A stretch of DNA of 64,000 bases. Source: Eledone cirrhosa (lineage: Eukaryota). Shown here in pieces: positions 6,288 to 44,853 of this stretch (position 1 is the first letter of the stretch; every line of letters starts with the position of its first letter). The notes under the pieces were generated by a model. It made no database searches. It worked only from the letters and a program-made list of their open reading frames with translations, and was not told the origin of the DNA. The stretch lies in NCBI GenBank assembly GCA_964016885.1, contig OZ024741.1, positions 91,264,001 through 91,328,000 of the forward strand, given 5' to 3'. A program made the translations under genes and the position numbers.

Positions 6288-7694
6288 TGAGGAAGCAGCA
6301 TCAGGATTTAACAAGATCGTATTTTATTAACTCTGGTGAGATTTAAATTCAGACCATTATTGAAAGTAATTACACGCTGGGGAAACATGTTTTATATTCT
6401 ACTGTCTCTGTCTTAACTGCTCAATCAGCTATTGCAATAATTTCTTATATGAACACAGGCTTGCACGTTTTTATTAACCAGTTAATTGGCTGAGTCGTTA
6501 GAACGTCGAATAGAATGCTTTACGGCATTCGTTCCGACACTGTGCTCCATGTTCAAATCCCATTGTCTTTCATTCTTCCGGGGTTGACAAAGTACCAGTT
6601 CAATTTTGGGTCTATTCGTTCACTATATCTCCTCAATATATCCTTTCTCTCTCTTTCTATATATATATACATTCTTTTTTTTTGTCTATCGTTATTTTCT
6701 TGTATGTTTAATTTGTGCCATCGGTCGGTTTTCTTGGTGTCACATTTTATAACTTAATGTTTGTTTCTAACTTTCAATCTATTGAGTGCTTTGTGATTGC
6801 CTTAAACAAATCGAATAGAACTTGCTGTACTGTAGCTAAAATTTGATTTACAAATATATATATCTATAAGCAAGTGAATAAATGAAGGAGTCGTTATCCG
6901 TTATAACAAATTATTTATACCATTCTTACATGATGTTTCATATATATATATATAGCAATATCCTTCTTCCCTCTATATACTTCTCCTGAAGAAATACGCT
7001 ATGTTCAGATTTGGTGAAGATGGGCTCGCCACGTTTATATGCTAAAGACACACCGTATGACCTCCTCCCCCCATGTATCAGAATTTCGGTCCCCTCAGTA
7101 ATCACGATTTTATATTCGATTGAATCAACCCTGGTACGCCTTTTATCGACTCGTAAATGTTGACCTTAAGCTCAGAATGTAGAAGTAGCTAATTGAATAC
7201 TACAATATTTAGATCGACCCTGTATCAATATATCTACTGTTGTAATGACTATAACAATTTTTGATTTAGATACAAGGCCAGCGATATGTAGGGTGTTGAG
7301 AGCCAATTCAATCTACTCCAGTACTTAACTAGTACTTTATTGTATCCTCGGAAGGATAAAAGGCAAAGTTGACCTCTGTGGGATTTGAACGTAAAGTGTC
7401 GTAACTAAGTGCCGCAAAGCATTTTATCCAACGTTCTACCGATGTTGCCAATCCACTACCAGTCCAATGACTACAATAATGGTTTCTAATATAGGCAAAA
7501 GGCCAGCAATATGGGGATGAGGGGAAATTCATTAAATCGACTCCAGTACGTAACTGGTAATTTATTTTATCGATCTCAGAAGGATGAAAGGCAAAGTTGG
7601 CATTGGCAGGATTTGAACTTAGAACATAAAAGTTGTTACTAAATACCGTAATTTTACTAGTCTTAACAATAATTATTTCTTTATTGGCCATAAT

Positions 7695-10527
7695 GATGTC
7701 TATGAATTTGTAAATGGGGGACATTTTAAAGTTTGGATGTTGGTTAGGTGTACAATTGGCGATATGTTCACTAAAAGCAATCTTTCTGTATTCCTGTATT
7801 TTGATTTGTGATCTATGGACGGTCATACGTTGTCGGAGGCTGTTTTTTGTCTGTCCTATGTAGTGCTCTTGACAATCTGAGCAGGTCAAAACATAGATTA
7901 GGTTTTCAGATGCACATGTAAAGTTGTGTTTAACTGTGAAATGTTGTCCTTGTTTAAAATGGAATTTTGAACCTTCTATTAGATTTATGTATATGCCACA
8001 GTTGGGCCTTCCGCATTTTTTTACTGTAGGGTTCATTGTGAGGGTTGGTTGGATTTTTGGCTTGTGTGAGGATGTTTTTTATGGATTTAGATTGTCTTTT
8101 GCTCTTTATGATGTTGTGTGTTTGGAGGATTTTGTTCATTCTTGGGTCTCTTTTTAGTAAAGGAATCTTCTGGAGAATGGTGTCGAGGGGATTGTGTTGA
8201 GGGGGTTGTGTGTGGAGATGTATGGTAGAGTTTTCTGTTGCAGTTCATTCTTGGGTTTGGGGTGTCTGAGTTCCTGGATGTTGAGTATTAGGGCACGTTG
8301 GAGTCCATTGTTGATTGGGGATGGTGGGTAGTTCCTGCTGATAAGTGTGTTCTTTAATTCTTCTAGTCGTGTGTAGCATGTGTATTTATCTGAAACTATT
8401 GTGCAGATCCTTCTGGCTAGGTTATAAGGAATTGCCATTTTGGTATGGCGAGGGTGGCACGAGTTAAATGGAAGATTTGTTTGGAGTCTGTGGGTTTGTA
8501 GTATATGTCTGTTTCTATTTTGTTGATTGTTTTCTTGATGAGGATGTCGAGGAAAGGGAGTTGTTCATGGCTGTAATTCATTGTAAATTGTAAGTTTGTG
8601 TTGAGTCCATTTAGAAGGGTTTTAAACTCAATCAGTCTTTCTATACTTTCATGCCAGAGGATGAAACAGTCGTCCAGATATCTCTTCCAGTTTTTTTCTG
8701 TGTAGGTAGAAGTGGTTACCGTATTTGTCTAGAACTTTGCGGGGGAGGGTGGTTTCCAAATATCTCATGACAAGGTTGGCGTATGAGGGGGCTACTTTCG
8801 TGTCTATGGCAGTTCCAGATTTCTGTCTGTAGTATTTGGCATCGAATTCGAAGAAGTTGTTTTCCAAGATGAATTTGAGTCCCTCCAACACAAATTCTTT
8901 AGGGATGCGCTGTGGAAGTTCACTAGGGGAATTTTCAAGCCAGAATTGTATTGCCTCTATATCTAGGCTGTGTGGGATATTGGAATATAGATTGATGACA
9001 TCAAAGGTTACTAGTAAGGTATGTTCATTATTAAGTGTTGTTGGGAGGTGGTTGAGCATGTCAAGGTCGTCCGTTATGAAGCTTTTTATGTGTTTTAGGA
9101 AAGGTTTAAGCAGAATATTTAGGAAGTTGCTTAGGCGGTGGGTTTCACATGTGGTACCTGCTATTATGGTCTTAATTTAAGGTCATCGGGAGGGGGTATA
9201 TTGATGTAAATGTCTGTGGCTTGCTTGCAGGCCCTGCCTATTACTTCGCTTTTGTGTGTTTTGGGGATACCGTAGAAGAGGCTGGTTCTGCTTTTGAAAT
9301 TGGTGATGTAGTTGTATTCCTTGTCGGTAAGGCCTTCTTTGTAAAGGGTTGTTAGGGATTTTAGGTTTCTTATTATTTTCTGTTGTGTGTAGTGTTGGGC
9401 CTTTTCGTAATATGTTTGGTTTTCTAGAGTTGAGAGTACTAGAGTCGTGTAGTAATATGTCCTCATAAGGGTTACTGCACTCCCTTTATCCGCCTCTTTG
9501 ATTGTTAGGGTTTTGTCATTCTTTAGACTGTTAAGACCATTCTATTCTTTTTTGCTTAGGTTTAGTTTTTGTTTATGTCTGTGTAGGTGGTGGTATGGGT
9601 AATTAGCAATGTGTTCGCAGAATTGATCGAGGAATTTGTTCTTGCCTTTTGGTGGGGTGTAGTTGCTTCTATTTCTGGCTATTGAGTCATCCCCATTGTA
9701 TTTGTCGTATAGTTGCTCGCTGAGTCTTAGTTTTCTACAGAATTCTGCAATATCTTGCTTCATTTCGGGGTAGTTTGGTCGTTGGGGAGTTGGTGTAAAT
9801 TTCAGACCTTTGGAGAGTAAGTTGATTTGGTCTATTGTTAATCCTTTAGAGGTTAAATTAACGATTTTTATTACATTTTGTGTCTCCTGTGTGTTTTGTG
9901 TTATCTTGTTACCCTGTCTGTGTGCTGTGTCTAAAAAATGACTGCGGGAGTTGTGGTGGTTGTTGAAGTTTGGATGTCTCTTATGGTTGTATTGGCCCCT
10001 GCTGTTGTTGTTAGAGGGTGTGTAGCTGTGGTGGTTGTTGAAGTTAGGTTGTATCGTGTGGTTGTATTGAGCCCTGCTGTTGTTGTTGTAGGGTGTGTAG
10101 ATTTGACGGACGTGGTTATAGGGTGTGTAGTTGTATCGTATGGTTGTATTGAGCCCTGCTGTTGTTGTAGGGTGTGTAGGCTTGGTGGTAGTTGTAGTAG
10201 GGTTGTCATATTGAGTCCTGTTGTTGCTGTTATATGGTGTGTAGCTATGGTGGTTGTAGTGGTTAGGGTGTCTCGTGTGGTTGTATTGTCCCCTGCTGGT
10301 GTTGTTGTAGTAGGATGTGGTTAGTGTAGGGGGGTAGATTAGGATTTCCTTATAGTTGGTGTGTGGTTGTGAGACCCTATGTGGCTTGTGTGGTAGTTGT
10401 GTGTTTTGCGTTCTATGTTGAAAGTAATGATGGTTGTGGGTTTATTGTGTGGGGATGTTAGGGGGGGTTGTAAGTGTGGGGTATTCTATGGTTTCTCCTG
10501 GTGGGAGAGAAGTTGTAGTGTCTATCT

Positions 10528-11076: not shown

Positions 11077-11780
11077 CTTCCTCTATATCTTTCTCATTTC
11101 TTCTCTCTCACTTTTTATCTTTCTCTAGAAGAAATCTGCTGTACTCAGTCGTAATATAAAAATGGCTTCTACAGGACTAGAACAGTTTCATCGAAATAAA
11201 TCATCCTGATGATTTCCTTCGAAATGTATGTATATGTATATATGTATGTATATATATAGTTATACTTGGGGAGGGTCATATTTGTGTAATATTGCCAGAA
11301 TTAATAACAGAACACACTCACTGTTTGGTTGGTTTTCGCTTCTCGCTGTCTTTTATATCTGCGATCTAACTTAATCGGTCCTCAATGTTGCCATTGACTG
11401 ACCGACGGTCAAAAATAATACAGATACAATATAGACACAAACACATATATATAGTTTACATAATTTACATAAATCTTTCGTTGCACATCTGCAACATCGT
11501 CAGTGGTGTTATATTTTTTCCTCCTGTTGTGTTGTATGTCTACGCCATCTTTTATTCAGTCTGTCTATATATTTATTTATTTATTTATTTGCTTGTTTGT
11601 TTATTTTATTTTGTCTTCTTTGCGCATGCGTTTGCGTGTGTGTATAGTGTTACGTTTGCTGTGTGACTAGTGTGTATAGTGTTGTGTCTGCTGGGTGACT
11701 AGTGTGTGTTTATGTGCTTGTTGTTATTGTGCTTGTGTATGTATTTATTTATCTTATTTTATTTTATTTTATTTACTTAT

Positions 11781-12840
11781 TTATACTTCTCTTAGGTTAG
11801 TGTTGTTTGTTTGGGTGTTGTTGTTGTTCCACTCATTCTTTCTGTTTAGCTTTGGTCTTCTAATTTCTATTTCACTGGCCTCTCTGATTTGCCTATCTGC
11901 TGGGTCATTCCTATGTTTAGATATTATTCTAATTTCTATGTTGTCTATGTTACCGTCATGTTGTTGTCTAGCATGTTCGTATAGTACTGACCCGTTTTTT
12001 CGTCCTTTTAGTTCCCCCCAGTGTTGGTCTATCCTTTCACCTATGCTACGAGCTGTTTCGCCTATGTATGTTGTTGTCATGTTTCTGCAAGTACCCTCTG
12101 TACATCTTATGCTATAGACTACGTTTCTAGTTTTACAGTTTATCCGGGGGTTCACCTTACATATGATACATTTCCTATTGGTACAGTGGGTTTTCTTAAA
12201 GGGGTAGGTTTTGCTGATCAGGGATTTTATGGTGGTTCCTGGCTTTTCTACTACCTTTATTTTTAAGTGGGTCTTTCACAGGGCCTTTCTACACTGGTTA
12301 GCTAATTTCCCTCCAGGGGTGGCGTCCACAAACATGACACTCTGATATCTCTGGTTGTCGTACCATGATGTGGCCTTCCCTATCTTATGTCTAGCCCTAT
12401 CTAAGCTATTCAATGATTTGCTCCTGTATAATGGGAAAATTCCTTTCATGTCCAGTTCTATGAGGGTCTTATACTTTTCCATGGCTCCTTTGTATACTCT
12501 GACTCTGTCTCTTTGGTTGTAGCCAGAGAACTGCATGCGGTTGATGAAGTGTTGGATGTGTCTTTCCATTTCTGTTGGGTCGCACATGCTGGACACATTC
12601 TTCATCACTCGTACCAAATCTGCGATCAGAATATTAAACTTAGCACTACTGGACATTGCTGAGTTTTTGAGTATCAGGTATTTAGAGGCCATGGGTTTAG
12701 CATAGTGTGAGTGGAGAATTTGGGCTCTCTCGTCTATAGTGTTAATCCAGAGTTCTGTGTCTAATACAGGTAGTCTATTGTTAGGATGTTTGGAAGGGAA
12801 GTCGATAGTTACAGTTATACTCTGGTGTATGGAATTAGCT
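11781..12840 (-). pseudogene. Inverted partial copy of the PLE thumb + GIY-YIG coding region
   Basis: ORFs 12276-12692 and 11781-12155 match the plus-strand copy; one in-frame TGA lies between them. Confidence 0.9.
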
Positions 12841-12950
12841 TGGGAGGAAACTTGGGAGGAAACCTGTAGAAGGCTTGGTTAGCCTCAAGCAGCGCACAAG
12901 GGATGGTGAGGTAGTGTGTCTACCCACAGATAAGTAAACCTGTAGAAGGC

Positions 12951-15112
12951 TTGGTTAGCCTCAAGCAGCGCACAAGGGATGGTGAGGTAGTGTGTCTACC
13001 CACAGATAAGTCTGGTAGGATGTCAATAGATAGCATGCCGAACTACATCGAGGCTATGCAACCCCACATCACCAACACAAGCGAAATTGCACAACAAACA
13101 CACGATGGGAGAGAAAAAATCCTCAACGCTCACATGATGATGTGGACTGACATCCTAAAGCCAAGCAGACACACTGCCAACAACTTCCAGGCGTCTAACA
13201 ATGGCATACCACCCTTGTATGGGCTCCGCAAAGACCACAAGATAGTCGACGACCCGACAACAGGACCACCAACAAGACCCGTATGCGGAGCTAATATAGC
13301 TAGCAGCTACAGGATCTCCTACTTCCTCTCGATGGTTATACGCCCCATAATCAAGATGTCCCCATCTGTATGTGAAAGTACAGAGGACCTCCTCAGCAGA
13401 ATCAGTGAGTGCAACAAAAACAGGAGCCTATCCAACTGCATAATAGGCAGCATGGATGTGGTGTCACTGTACCCATCCATTAACATTGATTTTGCTGTGA
13501 AAAGATGTGTGGAGATGATCATCGAGAGTGAGGTGGAGTTCTGCGACGTCGACACAGACGAACTGGGCCTCCTACTTAGACTTACCTACGACACTGACTA
13601 CCTAGACAGATGTTTCTGCCCTAGTAGACCTATAAGAGGTAGACCCCCACCATAACCTCAATGGCAAAAAAGACTCCCATGGGAAGGTGGATTGGGTGGA
13701 CCAAAGCTATACGAACCCCCCAAAACAATGATCAGGTAAGAAAAATGGTCGCACATGCAATAGGGGCTAGTATCAAAACTACCCTAAAGGGCCACATATT
13801 TAAGTTCAATGAGAAAATCTACACCCAAAATGAGGGAGCAGCCATCGGCGTCAGCATAGCTGGTGATGTTGCCAAACTTTTCATGGTATGGTGGGAAAGG
13901 AGACTTAAAGATCTCCTTAATGAAAGCTCCATAGACCTCATCATGTACTCTCGTTATGTAGACGATATCAATATAGTTATAAGAACACCCCCACTAGAGA
14001 GCACTAACAAGTTTGAATTAGAACGTAGCACGATGGAAAGCATCCAGCAGATAGCTAATTCCATACACCAGAGTATAACTGTAACTATCGACTTCCCTTC
14101 CAAACATCCTAACAATAGACTACCTGTATTAGACACAGAACTCTGGATTAACACTATAGACGAGAGAGCCCAAATTCTCCACTCACACTATGCTAAACCC
14201 ATGGCCTCTAAATACCTGATACTCAAAAACTCAGCAATGTCCAGTAGTGCTAAGTTTAATATTCTGATCGCAGATTTGGTACGAGTGATGAAGAATGTGT
14301 CCAACATGTGCGACCCAACAGAAATGGAAAGACACATCCAACACTTCATCAACCGCATGCAGTTCTCTGGCTACAACCAAAGAGACAGAGTCAGAGTATA
14401 CAAAGGAGCCATGGAAAAGTATAAGACCCTCATAGAACTGGACATGAAAGGAATTTGCCCATTATACAGGAGCAAATCATTGAATAGCTTAGATAGGGCT
14501 AGACATAAGATAAGGAAGGCCACATCATGGTACGACAACCAGAGATATCAGAGTGTCATGTTTGTGGACGCTACCCCTGGAGGGAAATTAGCTAACCAGT
14601 GTAGAAAGGCCCTGAGAAAGACCCACTTAAAAATAAAGGTGGTAGAAAAGCCAGGAACCACCATAAAATCCCTGATCAGCAAAACCTACCCCTTTAAGAA
14701 AACCCACTGTACCAATAGGAAATGTATCATATGTAAGGTGAACCCCCTGGATAAACTGTAAAACTAGAAACGTAGTCTATAGCATAAGATGTACAGAGGG
14801 TACTTGCAGAAACATGACAACAACATACATAGGCGAAACAGCTCGTAGCATAGGTGAAAGGATAGACCAACACTGGGGGAACTAAAAGGACGAAAAAACG
14901 GATCAGTACTATACGAACATGCTAGACAACAACATGACGGTAACATAGACAACATAGAAATTAGAATAATATCAAAACATAGGAATGACCCAGCAGATAG
15001 GCAAATCAGAGAGGCCAGTGAAATAGAAATTAGAAGACCAAAGCTAAACAGAAAGAATGAGTGGAACAACAACAACACCCAAACAAACAACACTAACCTA
15101 AGAGAAGTATAA
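12951..15112 (+). pseudogene. PLE reverse transcriptase + GIY-YIG endonuclease, 5'-truncated and frameshifted (~13650, ~14748, ~14880)
   Basis: PTDKSG, PPLYGLRKDHK, GSMDVVSLYPSI, QNEGAAIG, RYVDD, LPVLD, KPMAS, FSGY, CTNRKCIIC, NVVYSIRC..YIGETAR, LNRKNEW. Confidence 0.9.
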
Positions 15113-15380
15113 ATAAGTAAATAAAATAAAATAAAATAAGATAAATAAATACATACACAAGCACAATAACAACAAGCACATAAACACACACTAGTCACCC
15201 AGCAGACACAACACTATACACACTAGTCACACAGCAAACGTAACACTATACACACACGCAAACGCATGCGCAAAGAAGACAAAATAAAATAAACAAACAA
15301 GCAAATAAATAAATAAATAAATATATAGACAGACTGAATAAAAGATGGCGTAGACATACAACACAACAGGAGGAAAAAAT

Positions 15381-15455
15381 ATAACACCACTGACGATGTT
15401 GCAGATGTGCAACGAAAGATTTATGTAAATTATGTAAACTATATATATGTGTTTG
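15381..15455 (+). ncRNA. Putative hammerhead ribozyme in the PLE 3' region (mirror copy ~11440-11512 on minus)
   Basis: CTGACGA (15390-96), stem II GTTGCA-GATG-TGCAAC, GAAA (15414-17); stems I and III imperfect. Confidence 0.6.
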
Positions 15456-15695
15456 TGTCTATATTGTATCTGTATTATTTTTGACCGTCGGTCAGTCAAT
15501 GGCAACATTGAGGACCGAGTAAGCTAGATTACAGATATAAAAGACAGCGAGAAGCGAAAACCAGCCAAACAGTGAGTGTGTTCTGTTATTAATTCTGGCA
15601 ATATTACACAAATATGACCCTCCCCAAGTATAACAATATTTGTTTCGACACACAATTTCATATAAAAAACCTCGCTAAACTATATATATATATAT

Positions 15696-15890
15696 ATAGG
15701 AACCAGTAAGACCCCGACAGCTGAGCTCAAGCCGTTTCGACGGCTAATTCTGGACTCCAGAATTAGCCGTCGAAACGGCTTGAGCTCAGCTGTCGGGGTC
15801 TTACTGGTTCCTATTACCCACTCTACTACCTCAAGTATTGAGTACTTTGGTGCGTTATGGTCCACCTGGTTCCTTACCACATCTCATTCG

Positions 15891-15892
<2 letters not shown>
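15696..15892 (+). mobile_element. Fold-back (palindromic) PLE pLTR-like mini-element, family A copy 1
   Basis: Perfect 59-bp arms (15696-15754 / 15756-15814) plus a 78-bp tail, (TA)n on both sides, homologous to 57774-57967. Confidence 0.85.
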
Positions 15893-15929
<37 letters not shown>

Positions 15930-15934
15930 TGTAT

Positions 15935-16021
<87 letters not shown>

Positions 16022-16027
<6 letters not shown>

Positions 16028-16099
16028 AGTGTATTATGGTGGTTGCAATGCGAGGATAATATCCTCCTCACACTGCAACCACCATAATACACTTACATA
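16022..16099. repeat. Inverted repeat, 35-bp arms with 8-nt loop
   Basis: TATGTAAGTGTATTATGGTGGTTGCA...TGCAACCACCATAATACACTTACATA, 2 mismatches. Confidence 0.9.
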
Positions 16100-42202: not shown

Positions 42203-44853
42203 GTGATGGGGTTTTCAGCGTAACTGGCTACAACTTGTTTCATAAAGACCGCATTAATCATGCTGGTGGTGGTGGTGTAAGGGTCTATGTTCGGTCAAAT
42301 TTTTCAGCAATATCTTGTGTTGATTTGAACCATTCGCAGCAAGAAGTATTATTCTGCGATATACATATGACCATATCAACACTGCTACTTGGAGTCGTTT
42401 ACCGACCCCAAAAATTACCATCAGGACACTCAACTTTGTGATATCCTCAGAGTTGCTGCCAGGAAAATAGCCACTTATGTTTTTATTGCAGAAGACCTCA
42501 ATCACCCTGAGATTGACTGGGAAACCTTTCATTGTCCACAAGTGCAAATGATTTCCTTGAGCTAGTGCTGGACTCAAACTGGTCTCAAGTAGTCACCTCC
42601 CCAACAAGAGGTGACAACACTTTGGATCTACTCTTCACCACTACTCCTGAAATGGTTATTAGTGTTACTACTGAGGAACCTTTAGGTGACTCTGATGCAC
42701 CGAGCTGCAACGTCCAAACTGGCTTGAGTTTTACGATTCTGAAGATGTCAACACTGTACTCCAGAACATCATGTGCAGCATCGGTGCCACATAAGCAGAA
42801 AAAACATCCCAAAAGTGCAATTTGGGAGACAGCAGCAGTCCGTCTTGCCAGGAAAGAACGTTGTAATGCTGAACGTGAGTACAAACTGCATAAATCAGAT
42901 ATCAATAGGAAAAAGCAAAATAAATCATCTAACCATCTTAAGCAGGTAACAAAAAAGACAGTGTTTGAATTTGAGCAGTGCATAACAACTACCCTGACAG
43001 TAATGTGTTCTGGAAGTATGTTCATTCAAAGCAGAGGCCTTACTCTCCAGTTGGTCCTCTTCGCAATCCCCGCACAAGCCAGGTTACTGACGATTCCAAG
43101 GAATGCGCAGAACTCATTGCTGAATGCTATGCAGGCATTTTCACTGTTGAAGACCAGAGTGTACCATCTCCACCACTTCTGACATCGCATTCTATTACAA
43201 CAATGGAATTTACACCTGCAATGCTGCAATGTCACCTTAAAAATAAACACAATGATGCCTCTCCTGGTCTTGATGGTCTTACGTACCTACTTCTCAAACG
43301 TGGTGGGTACTTCCTTCTGCACCAGTTATCACGCTTCTTCCAATTTTGTCTGAATAACGGTGCCCTGAGCACTGGAAAACTGCCAGTGTAATTCCTCTGT
43401 TCAAAAAGGGTGATCGCACATCACCTGTCAACTATTGTCCAGTCAGTCTTATTAGCTGCATTGCCAAACTGATGAAATCTTGTGTCAGAGAAACACTTTT
43501 AACTTCTGGAACTCTCACAGTCTTATCCAGCCCTAGCAATTTGGATTTATCCCTAACTCCAGCTGCTGTGATCAACTTATTGAGTTTCTTGAGGACATCA
43601 CCTGGATCACTGATGGCAGCTCATGGGTGGATGTTGTTTACCATGACTTGGCTAAAGCTTTCAATTCTGTGCCGCACAAAAGACTTATGGCAAAACTCTC
43701 TGCAGTGGGTGTGAAGGATGATCTTTTTAACTGGTTGAAGTCCTTCATTCTCAGTCGAAGAGAGGTAGTCACCGTTCTAGGACAGCATTCCTCACTGTAT
43801 GAGATGTCATATGGTGTACCACAGGGATCTATTCTTGGCCCCCTTTTGTTTGTGGCATATATTAATGACATAGATGCCAACTTAAAGAATGCCACAGTAC
43901 TGAAATATGCAGATGACATCAAGCTGTACCTTCAGATAAAAAGGACAGATCCTGAACACTATAGATCTTTTCTGCAATCTGACCTGGACACAATTCAACA
44001 ATGGATCATGGACTGGCAACTCAAGTTGGCTGTGAACAAGTGTACCACCATGCATTTTGGGAACAAAAACCCAGCGTCTACATACTCCTTCCACAACACT
44101 AATATCACGAAGTCTTCTTGTGAACGTAACCTGGGCATTATTGTCAGCAGCGATCTGCATTGGACAAAGCACGTCTCTAAAATTGTCACGAAGACCGAGG
44201 GTGTCTTAGCATCATTCATCACAAAGACCTTTGTCTGCCGCTCTCCAACTATCTATTTAAAGTTCTATATAGCTGTGGTGCAGCCACACTTAGAATTTGC
44301 ATCACCGGTCTGGAACCCCTATCTTGCTCAGAACATTGACCGCCTGGAAACTGTTCAGAGATGTGCAACCAAGCGAATACCTTCCATCTGGCATCTACCA
44401 TACCCCGAAAGCTTTGCTTCCTGGGAATGGATACATTGAAGCTCTGACGTCTGGCAACTGACTTCGTAAAGACCCACAAAATTATTAACCATCTTGCCAA
44501 CAACAACCCTGTGTGCCTTTTTGATTTCCATGCGTCTAACACACGTGGGCATGTCAACAAAGTAAAAAAACAGCACAGTTCTCATGACTTTTGGAAACAT
44601 TTTTTCACGCTCAGAGTTGCTGAAGCATGGAACAAACTATCTGCATCAGTTATTAGCTGTGGAGACACTGCATCCTTTAAAACTGCCATGCTTCCTGAGA
44701 TTCGCCAACACTATACCTGATACCCCACCTCCATACACACGCACACATGCATTTCATGACACTTGTACATTATTCTATGTACTATACATGCACCTTTGAT
44801 GAGTTGTAGTGCACCTGAGCACTGTACACAATAATTTCATCATTATTATTATT
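42203..44853 (+). mobile_element. CR1-clade LINE copy B, inverted relative to copy A
   Basis: ORF 43627-44439 has RT motifs (DLAKAFNSVPH, GVPQGSILGP, YADD); APE fragment at 42240-42700; same 3' end as copy A. Confidence 0.92.

What the first reader, a model, noticed from the sequence alone, without database searches (positions are those of the whole stretch)
15696..15892. Perfect 119-bp DNA palindrome centred on stem II of a half hammerhead ribozyme, inserted in (TA)n
Seen: arms of 59 bp with no mismatch and a 1-nt loop, then a 78-bp unique tail, with (TA)n on both sides. Each strand reads GACGGCTAATT..AATTAGCCGTC (stem II)-GAAA-CGGCT-TGAGCTC-AGCTG-TC-GGGGTC. That gives the GAAA core, a stem III with a palindromic GAGCTC loop and a GUC site, while the CUGANGA half is replaced by the mirror image. 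Known: Penelope-like elements carry type I hammerheads in their pLTRs, often with a palindromic stem III loop. Inference: PLE cDNA ending in stem II folds back, self-primes second-strand synthesis and is joined to the TA tract through TAT microhomology. This would yield a class of ribozyme-derived hairpin mini-elements that I do not recognise as described.
Basis: partly seen in the sequence, partly recalled or inferred. Interest (0 to 1): 0.82.

Follow-up and report, generated by a model that had tools for sequence, protein, structure and literature searches.

The report
Penelope stubs record RNA 5' ends
This 197-base mirror-image sequence is one of over 15,000 stub insertions of a Penelope-like jumping gene, and their centres sit at two fixed points, likely the start of the element's RNA and its predicted ribozyme cut, which suggests the enzyme copies one RNA twice, from both sides of a DNA break.

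Summary
The palindrome is real. It is the smallest form of an insertion of a Penelope-like element (PLE) with Hydra-clade motifs. The parent is intact in this genome, with a 719-aa RT/GIY-YIG ORF. At least 15,464 such hairpins exist, and their centres vary.

The parent ribozyme has the U3-A8 core, not CUGANGA. The centre lies in loop II and is not the natural stem II.

One arm carries the 78-nt tail and the other does not in 59 of 60 position-chosen copies. Only 1 of 120 arms passes -4 of an initiator-like A, and that A often has an extra G before it. About 290 more hairpins centre on the predicted ribozyme cut; both arms stop there in 37 of 47.

Best reading: both ends of a (TA)n break prime on one sense RNA at two fixed sites, both cDNAs run off its 5' end and are joined. 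Fold-back priming fits worse but is not excluded. No RNA data were available. Inverted, truncated, tailed PLE copies are known, and this scan noted such stubs on other DNA of this genome.

The parts
15681..15698 (.). Left (TA)n target tract; its last bases overlap the TAT at the end of the untailed arm
15696..15754 (-). Untailed inverted arm, parent leader +3 to +61. On the minus strand it also matches +2 and +1 and is preceded by a G (15755-15757), overlapping the other arm by 2 nt
15755..15757 (.). Head-to-head junction at the +1 wall; 1-nt spacer, or 1-2 nt microhomology
15756..15814 (+). Tailed arm, parent leader +3 to +61: 3' half of the type I hammerhead (stem II 3' strand 15761-15771, GAAA 15772-15775, stem III, predicted cut 15794|15795, stem I 3' strand)
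15815..15892 (+). 78-nt tail, parent leader +62 to +139; in the parent it runs on towards the ORF start at +232
15892..16024 (.). Right (TA)n/(CA)n tract
57773..57966 (-). Second stub of the same family (another subfamily, other centre), also one tailed and one untailed arm in (TA)n

Best explanation
The sequence is a stub insertion of a Penelope-like retrotransposon with Hydra-clade motifs, likely made when both ends of a cut in (TA)n primed reverse transcription on one sense RNA at two fixed sites and both copies ran off that RNA's 5' end and were joined head to head. Shown by the sequences: (a) the parent element; (b) two fixed target junctions, at TAT +59-61 and TAT +139-141; (c) one tailed and one untailed arm; (d) a wall at +1; (e) a minor class centred at +42. 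Inferred: +1 is the capped transcription start (initiator-like context, extra G); +42 is the ribozyme-cut 5' end; the protein (a predicted dimer in the anole element) cuts both strands and primes twice; the two cDNA 3' ends are joined by template jumping or host end joining, and each then templates the other's second strand. Stubs would arise when the enzyme engages the two start sites in the 5' leader, 139 nt from the cap. Long insertions would arise when it engages a downstream, circular or jumped copy of the same sites. The stubs are likely dead-end products made anew at each locus, not a family that copies itself.
For: Parent: 3,118-nt unit, 719-aa ORF with YRDD, DKT, RWR, CxCx5C, GIY-YIG-type, CxxC and CxH motifs, matching the Hydra description (PMC8557442 section 11). 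Tail pairing: 59 of 60 short inverted pairs among 72 position-chosen loci have one tail (binomial p 1e-16), as do 12 of 13 long inverted insertions and 45 of 47 in the +42 class. Wall: 103 of 120 arms end at -4 to +8 and 1 goes beyond -4. All 15 listed joints in reads and contigs of other samples land at -3 to +7. Extra G: 5,420 G versus 890 A before +1, where the parent has T or C; in 26 of 43 read copies the G comes from neither parent nor partner arm. Control: before +42, 7 G, 17 A, 24 T and 4 C in 52 arms. +42 class: 290/294 strand hits; of 47 loci, 26 end at +42 on both arms with filler, 11 are blunt and 10 have an arm running past. Coupling: about 228 both-at-+42 loci against 5-9 expected if arms drew RNAs independently; mixed +42/+1 at most about 82 against about 520 expected. 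Independent birth: 51 junction types in 60 copies, and this window's junction recurs in different subfamilies. The anole PLE cuts and extends both strands and starts at two sites that bound the tail (PMC11167929).
Against: No transcript evidence: +1 as start site and +42 as cut site rest on DNA fossils, a recalled initiator consensus and the recalled cap-G rule. A partner arm could supply the G in 17 of 43 copies. The ribozyme fold has z 0.38, little covariation (1 of 19 pairs) and no Rfam hit. All 13 copies that run from +1 far into the ORF pass +1 upstream with no wall, so long copies need a circular, tandem or jumped template that I did not show. A few arm pairs differ at sites that vary between subfamilies (L181 by 3 nt, L161, L097/L103), which fits two RNAs or later conversion better than one RNA. 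One locus has two tails (L319). In the anole element the start sites were not homologous to the target, both strands used both sites, the ribozyme was dispensable in vitro and no RNA reads began at the cut. The mixed-class share (15 of 100) was counted by eye from the listing. Both samples come from one contig.
Confidence: 0.62

Rival explanations
1. Fold-back: one cDNA primed at +139 runs to the RNA 5' end, snaps back, copies itself, stops at +61 and is joined to the other (TA)n end through TAT.
For: It explains one tail per locus and both arms sharing one 5' end. Arms mostly agree at subfamily sites; 19 of 50 comparable pairs are identical. Self-priming was proposed for palindromic PLE junctions, though on an antisense template (PMC3846280).
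Against: Centres with 0-1 nt between two complete ends leave no loop to fold (L103, L161, L187; 11 blunt and many single-base centres). Some loci have the extra G on both arms (L097, L208, L211). In L087, L160, L162 and L176 the tailed arm stops at +95 to +115, so it cannot have templated an untailed arm covering +1 to +61. Long insertions with arms of very unequal length still stop at +61. Discordant arms exist (L181).
Confidence: 0.17
2. Two separate RNAs from the same source locus, one per subunit of a dimer, with some asymmetry that sets one tail site and one internal site.
For: Discordant arms in L181, L161, L097/L103 and L305. Predicted dimer in the anole protein.
Against: Both arms share the rare +42 end about 30 times more often than independent draws predict. 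Strict tail/no-tail pairing needs an extra assumption. Bursts in which one RNA form dominated could mimic the coupling.
Confidence: 0.12
3. The geometry is as in the best explanation, but the +1 wall is an RT stall or a nuclease cut in loop II rather than a capped start.
For: Ends scatter from -4 to +8. No RNA start was observed. An RT with terminal-transferase bias could add C.
Against: The G excess is at +1 and not at +42. Ends include the A and G of the AG, which also argues against a splice junction. Long cDNAs pass the site freely.
Confidence: 0.07
4. A MITE, or a hairpin element that amplifies as a fixed unit from a master copy.
For: The 40 best hits are 96-100% identical over all 197 nt.
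Against: That set is selected by score. Unselected copies have varied centres. The termini are not inverted repeats of each other. The sequence is the leader of a PLE.
Confidence: 0.02

Closest known systems
Hydra-clade Penelope-like elements (Craig et al. 2021, PMC8557442; Hydra-1_Obim listed in its supplement)
   Same: C-terminal endonuclease, DKT, RWK-like, CxCx5C, CxxC and CxH motifs, (TA)n target, hammerhead in the pLTR. The inverted 5'-truncated copy and one-sided tail are described in that paper for PLEs generally.
   Different: Unit 3.1 kb (most are under 3 kb), tail 78 nt (30-40 reported), U3-A8 core where Hydra-1_Obim has ctgaagag. In the parts read I saw no account of mass stubs ending at a start site or cut site.
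Poseidon element PAc of the green anole (Frangieh et al. 2024, PMC11167929)
   Same: Two RT start sites bound the tail; both DNA strands are cut and extended; AT-rich target.
   Different: There the start sites are inside the ORF and not homologous to the target. Here both are in the 5' leader at TAT. There no RNA ends were found at the ribozyme cut; here about 290 insertions centre on it.
LINE-1 twin priming (recalled, Ostertag and Kazazian 2001)
   Same: The second target end primes internally on the same RNA and gives an inverted 5' segment.
   Different: Here the internal site is fixed and the two cDNAs usually overlap over +1 to +61. The non-overlapping form is the minority (L086, L087, L160, L162, L176).
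Adineta Penelope inverted pLTRs with junction palindromes (Arkhipova et al. 2013, PMC3846280)
   Same: Head-to-head inverted pLTR, optional tail, TATA plus initiator-like motif in the pLTR.
   Different: That paper proposes self-priming on an antisense template. Ends at the sense-strand ribozyme cut point to a sense template here.
U3-A8 hammerhead variant of Schistosoma Cercyon PLEs (Cervera and de la Pena 2014, PMC4209133)
   Same: Same core change; palindromic loop III.
   Different: Here stem III is about 5 bp and loop II is long and holds the likely start site.

Membership tests
Penelope-like element (EN+) | [quoted passage not shown] | tested here: met
   719-aa ORF read by eye for YRDD and a VIYQ...AYIG motif. 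2,217 relatives, best about 39-54% identical, mostly unnamed. No Pfam or PDB hit, so the domain names rest on motifs.
Penelope-like element (EN+) | pLTR from a partial tandem, inverted 5'-truncated copy, one-sided tail | tested here: met
   L151 and L154 are partial tandems; 12 of 13 long and 59 of 60 short pairs have one tail.
Hydra clade | DKT, RWK, CxCx5C linker, CxxC and CxH around the conserved E and N | tested here: met
   DKT, RWR (K to R), CNCPDRSIC, CNLC and CKH in the ORF against the description.
Hydra clade | Insertion into (TA)n | tested here: met
   30 of 30 best copies.
Hydra clade | [quoted passage not shown] | not tested
Type I hammerhead (parent) | Three-way junction with core boxes, G10.1-C11.1 and an NUH site | tested here: met
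   The minimum-energy and alignment folds give stems I-III with a 7-nt box, GAAA and GUC; z 0.38; no Rfam hit.
Type I hammerhead (parent) | Canonical C3-G8 core (CUGANGA) | tested here: not met
   U3-A8 in 26 of 30 loci, C3 with A8 in 4. U3-A8 is a published PLE variant.
Type I hammerhead (parent) | Self-cleavage | not testable with these tools
   Indirect only: insertions ending at G42.
Type I hammerhead (the stub itself) | Both core boxes present | tested here: not met
   The stub starts downstream of the first box.
MITE | Fixed length, terminal inverted repeats at both ends, transposase parent | tested here: not met
   Varied centres, asymmetric ends, retroelement parent. A target duplication cannot be read within (TA)n.
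Non-LTR retrozyme | Tandem non-coding units, each with a complete hammerhead | tested here: not met
   Single stubs with half a ribozyme; definition from bioRxiv 10.64898/2026.07.22.740005.

The most novel reading that the evidence does not exclude
The inverted, one-tailed layout of Penelope-like insertions is made by programmed double priming: both ends of one break copy the same sense RNA from two fixed sites, and the cDNAs join at their 3' ends. This family's 15,000 stubs are a fossil 5'-end map that shows a capped start inside the ribozyme's loop II and in vivo cleavage by a U3-A8 hammerhead. Cut or jumped RNAs would supply the templates that rebuild the pseudo-LTR.
Probability: 0.5. Interest if true: 0.8.

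Novelty: new variant of a known kind. Interest (0 to 1): 0.62.

Why it matters
How PLEs form inverted repeats, tails and pseudo-LTRs is called unresolved in the papers read (PMC8557442, PMC2377424, PMC11167929), and the role of their hammerheads is unclear. This family gives thousands of natural products whose ends separate the models: sense or antisense template, one RNA or two, double priming or fold-back. It also gives an intact ORF and a 139-nt template for a direct test. About 290 insertions centred on the predicted cut would be evidence of cleavage in the living germ line, which was sought and not found for the anole element. More than 15,000 short palindromes in (TA)n are also a large potential source of cruciform DNA and double-stranded RNA (inference).

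Tried and rejected
CUGANGA-parent searches: hits were hairpin centres, decayed mirror arms or chance neighbours; none seen was an intact parent. Rfam on the stub region gave only miRNA-like hairpin matches below the gathering score, and on the parent ribozyme nothing relevant. Pfam and PDB sequence searches of the ORF found nothing. Sequencing-run search: no RNA holder listed. RAD reads could not bridge this copy's centre; the read ends at 15749 and 15761 coincide with AATT, likely restriction sites, and are not RNA ends. G before -4: 209 matches, no control count, left uninterpreted. The tail folds into a hairpin but no better than shuffles (z 0.66). A splice acceptor at the wall was considered and set aside because arms keep the AG. 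First tabulations mis-called ends or crashed and were replaced. L148 was dropped from the long-insertion count because its two hits belong to separate insertions. L092, L100, L108 and L111 were dropped as repeats of a counted locus or junction, and the tandem copies in L191 were counted once. L085 and L158 are one locus. PMC13000458 passages did not bear on the cap-G rule.

Full report
Observation. The palindrome is as described: 59-nt arms at 15696-15754 and 15756-15814, fully complementary, 1 nt apart, then a 78-nt tail and (TA)n on both sides. The window lies in a 3.0-Gb genome; no call named the host. A DNA search scored 40 of 1,604 candidates, all 96-100% identical over the whole length, and the 30 fetched all sit in (TA)n. 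A 35-nt half site has 39,772 exact matches, and a centre pattern finds 15,464 hairpins, a lower bound. A second copy lies in this window at 57773-57966.

Parent. Searches for a CUGANGA parent failed. Copies chosen by position showed the answer: some are not mirrored and continue upstream into a pLTR and, further on, an ORF. L151 holds a partial tandem with a 3,118-nt unit and an intact 719-aa ORF starting at +232. I number from the A at which most arms stop. The ORF has DKT, RWR, CxCx5C, CxxC and CxH, the marks given for Hydra-clade PLEs, which target (TA)n (PMC8557442 section 11); I built no tree. The first ribozyme box is UUGANAA in 26 of 30 loci and CUGANAA in 4, and 4,160 matches carry that intact 5' half. 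The region folds into a type I three-way junction with the cut predicted after C41, though z is 0.38, only 1 of 19 pairs covaries and Rfam gives no hit. U3-A8 is a published PLE variant (PMC4209133). Position +1 lies in the long loop II, so the stub holds only the 3' half, and its left arm is a mirror of that half, not the parent's stem II 5' strand.

Layout. Copies meet (TA)n at two fixed sites, TAT at +59-61 and TAT at +139-141; the tail is the leader between them. Of 72 loci taken in order along contig C1, 60 are short inverted pairs, 9 are long and 3 are solo (L090 moved to long by eye). In 59 of the 60 exactly one arm has the tail. Twelve of 13 long inverted insertions, chosen for opposite-strand hits and not for tails, show the same; L150 is the exception and lies inside a larger inverted duplication. 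The stub is thus the short end of a continuum. An inverted 5'-truncated copy and a one-sided tail are known PLE features, and the anole PLE starts reverse transcription at two sites that bound its tail and extends both strands (PMC11167929). There are 51 junction types among the 60 copies, and this window's junction recurs in different subfamilies, so stubs were made independently.

The +1 wall. 103 of 120 arms end between -4 and +8, with a mode at +1/+2; one goes further upstream, and the rest are shorter. The focal arm was required to cover +11 to +45, which under-counts short arms but does not create the upstream wall. In raw reads of two other samples and contigs of one, all 15 listed joints land at -3 to +7. 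The context matches the initiator consensus and has an AT-rich box near -29 in some subfamilies (consensus recalled). A pLTR promoter with an initiator is shown for Drosophila Penelope (PMC2377424). The parent has T or C at -1, yet 5,420 arms have G there and 890 have A. In 26 of 43 such arms the G comes from neither parent nor partner arm; in 17 the partner could supply it. An extra G is what reverse transcription of a cap leaves (recalled; no paper read here states it).

The +42 class. Two of the copies that jump to internal sequence do so exactly at +42 (L263, L264), which prompted a search. About 290 hairpins are centred near there. Of all 47 on C1, 26 have both arms ending at G42 with a filler, 11 are blunt (ambiguous by one base) and 10 have an arm running past; 45 have one tail, 1 a partial tail and 1 two tails. 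The base before G42 is T 24, A 17, G 7 and C 4, so the G excess belongs to +1. A stall would be expected on entering stem I, not on leaving it (inference), so cleavage is the simpler reading, and it places the template on the sense strand, against the antisense self-priming idea (PMC3846280). Loci with one arm at +42 and one at +1 are few: at most 15 of 100 listed, by eye, among 545 matches. Independent draws would give 5-9 double-+42 loci and about 520 mixed; about 228 and at most about 82 are seen. The two arms therefore share one RNA end.

Mechanism. One RNA primed twice explains the strict tail pairing, the shared ends and the fixed stop at +61. Fold-back also gives shared ends but needs a loop, and many centres have 0-1 nt between two complete ends. 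It also cannot make L087, L160, L162 or L176, where the tailed arm stops before the region the other arm covers. Some fillers repeat nearby sequence (L170, L208, L224), as polymerase-theta joining does (recalled). Against the one-RNA model: L181 differs between arms at three adjacent subfamily sites, and L161, L097/L103 and L305 at one. Only 19 of 50 pairs are identical, many differences being single transitions. All 13 copies that run from +1 far into the ORF, out of 26 leader-ORF junctions, pass +1 upstream, so long insertions need a circular, tandem or jumped template; L246, L255 and L256 show jumps from +2 or +4 to internal sites. No RNA was examined.

Literature. Read: PMC11167929 parts 1-2 of 4; PMC8557442 passages, section 11 and a supplement search; bioRxiv 10.64898/2026.07.22.740005 part 1 of 5; PMC2377424 passages and discussion; PMC4209133, PMC3846280 and PMC13000458 passages. 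Searches for Penelope with twin priming, head-to-head, pLTR mechanism, promoter and octopus palindromes listed no paper that, by title, abstract start or the passages read, describes stubs ending at a start site and a ribozyme cut; most subscription papers are not covered. Earlier notes of this scan describe Hydra-clade stubs, two fixed ends and copying onto both ends of a break on other DNA of this genome. My double-priming reading was written before that look-up, and no note held all the words on start site and cap.

Verdict. A real feature and a new variant of a known kind. PLE origin about 0.97, run-off at RNA 5' ends about 0.8, the whole mechanism 0.62. Interest 0.62.

Noticed in passing
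window 11254-15639: Another PLE family (RT and C-terminal GIY-YIG-type ORF in pieces, 12915-15100) with an inverted copy of its 3' part, 94-99% identical; the same layout at kilobase scale, ending just left of the stub.
   Followed up: partly
window 16023-16097: A 75-nt imperfect hairpin starting at the end of the right (TA)n tract; possibly a stub of another family. No other copy among the fetched loci.
   Followed up: partly
window 7329-10441: A third PLE-like ORF in pieces on the minus strand, with an N/T-rich repeat segment at 9952-10310.
   Followed up: no
window 34976-37698 and 42232-44853: Large inverted repeat of a broken RT-bearing LINE-like element, 89-100% identical arms.
   Followed up: no
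L012 1721-1981; L019 1032-1171; L024 1103-1321: Other repeats between TA tracts carry CUGANGA...GAAA hammerhead-like motifs.
   Followed up: no
L116, L126, L127, L136: Four parent copies have C3 with A8, a mismatched core pair that may be less active.
   Followed up: no
L246, L255, L256, L263, L264, L269: Template jumps from +2, +4, +42 or about -27 to internal leader or ORF positions; candidates for the step that rebuilds the pseudo-LTR.
   Followed up: partly
run X5 (organism B) on L202:250-480: Contigs of a second organism label hold the same family, including parent pLTR sequence upstream of +1.
   Followed up: no
window 27653-28880: 1.2-kb GTG/GTA-rich tandem array with open low-complexity frames.
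   Followed up: no
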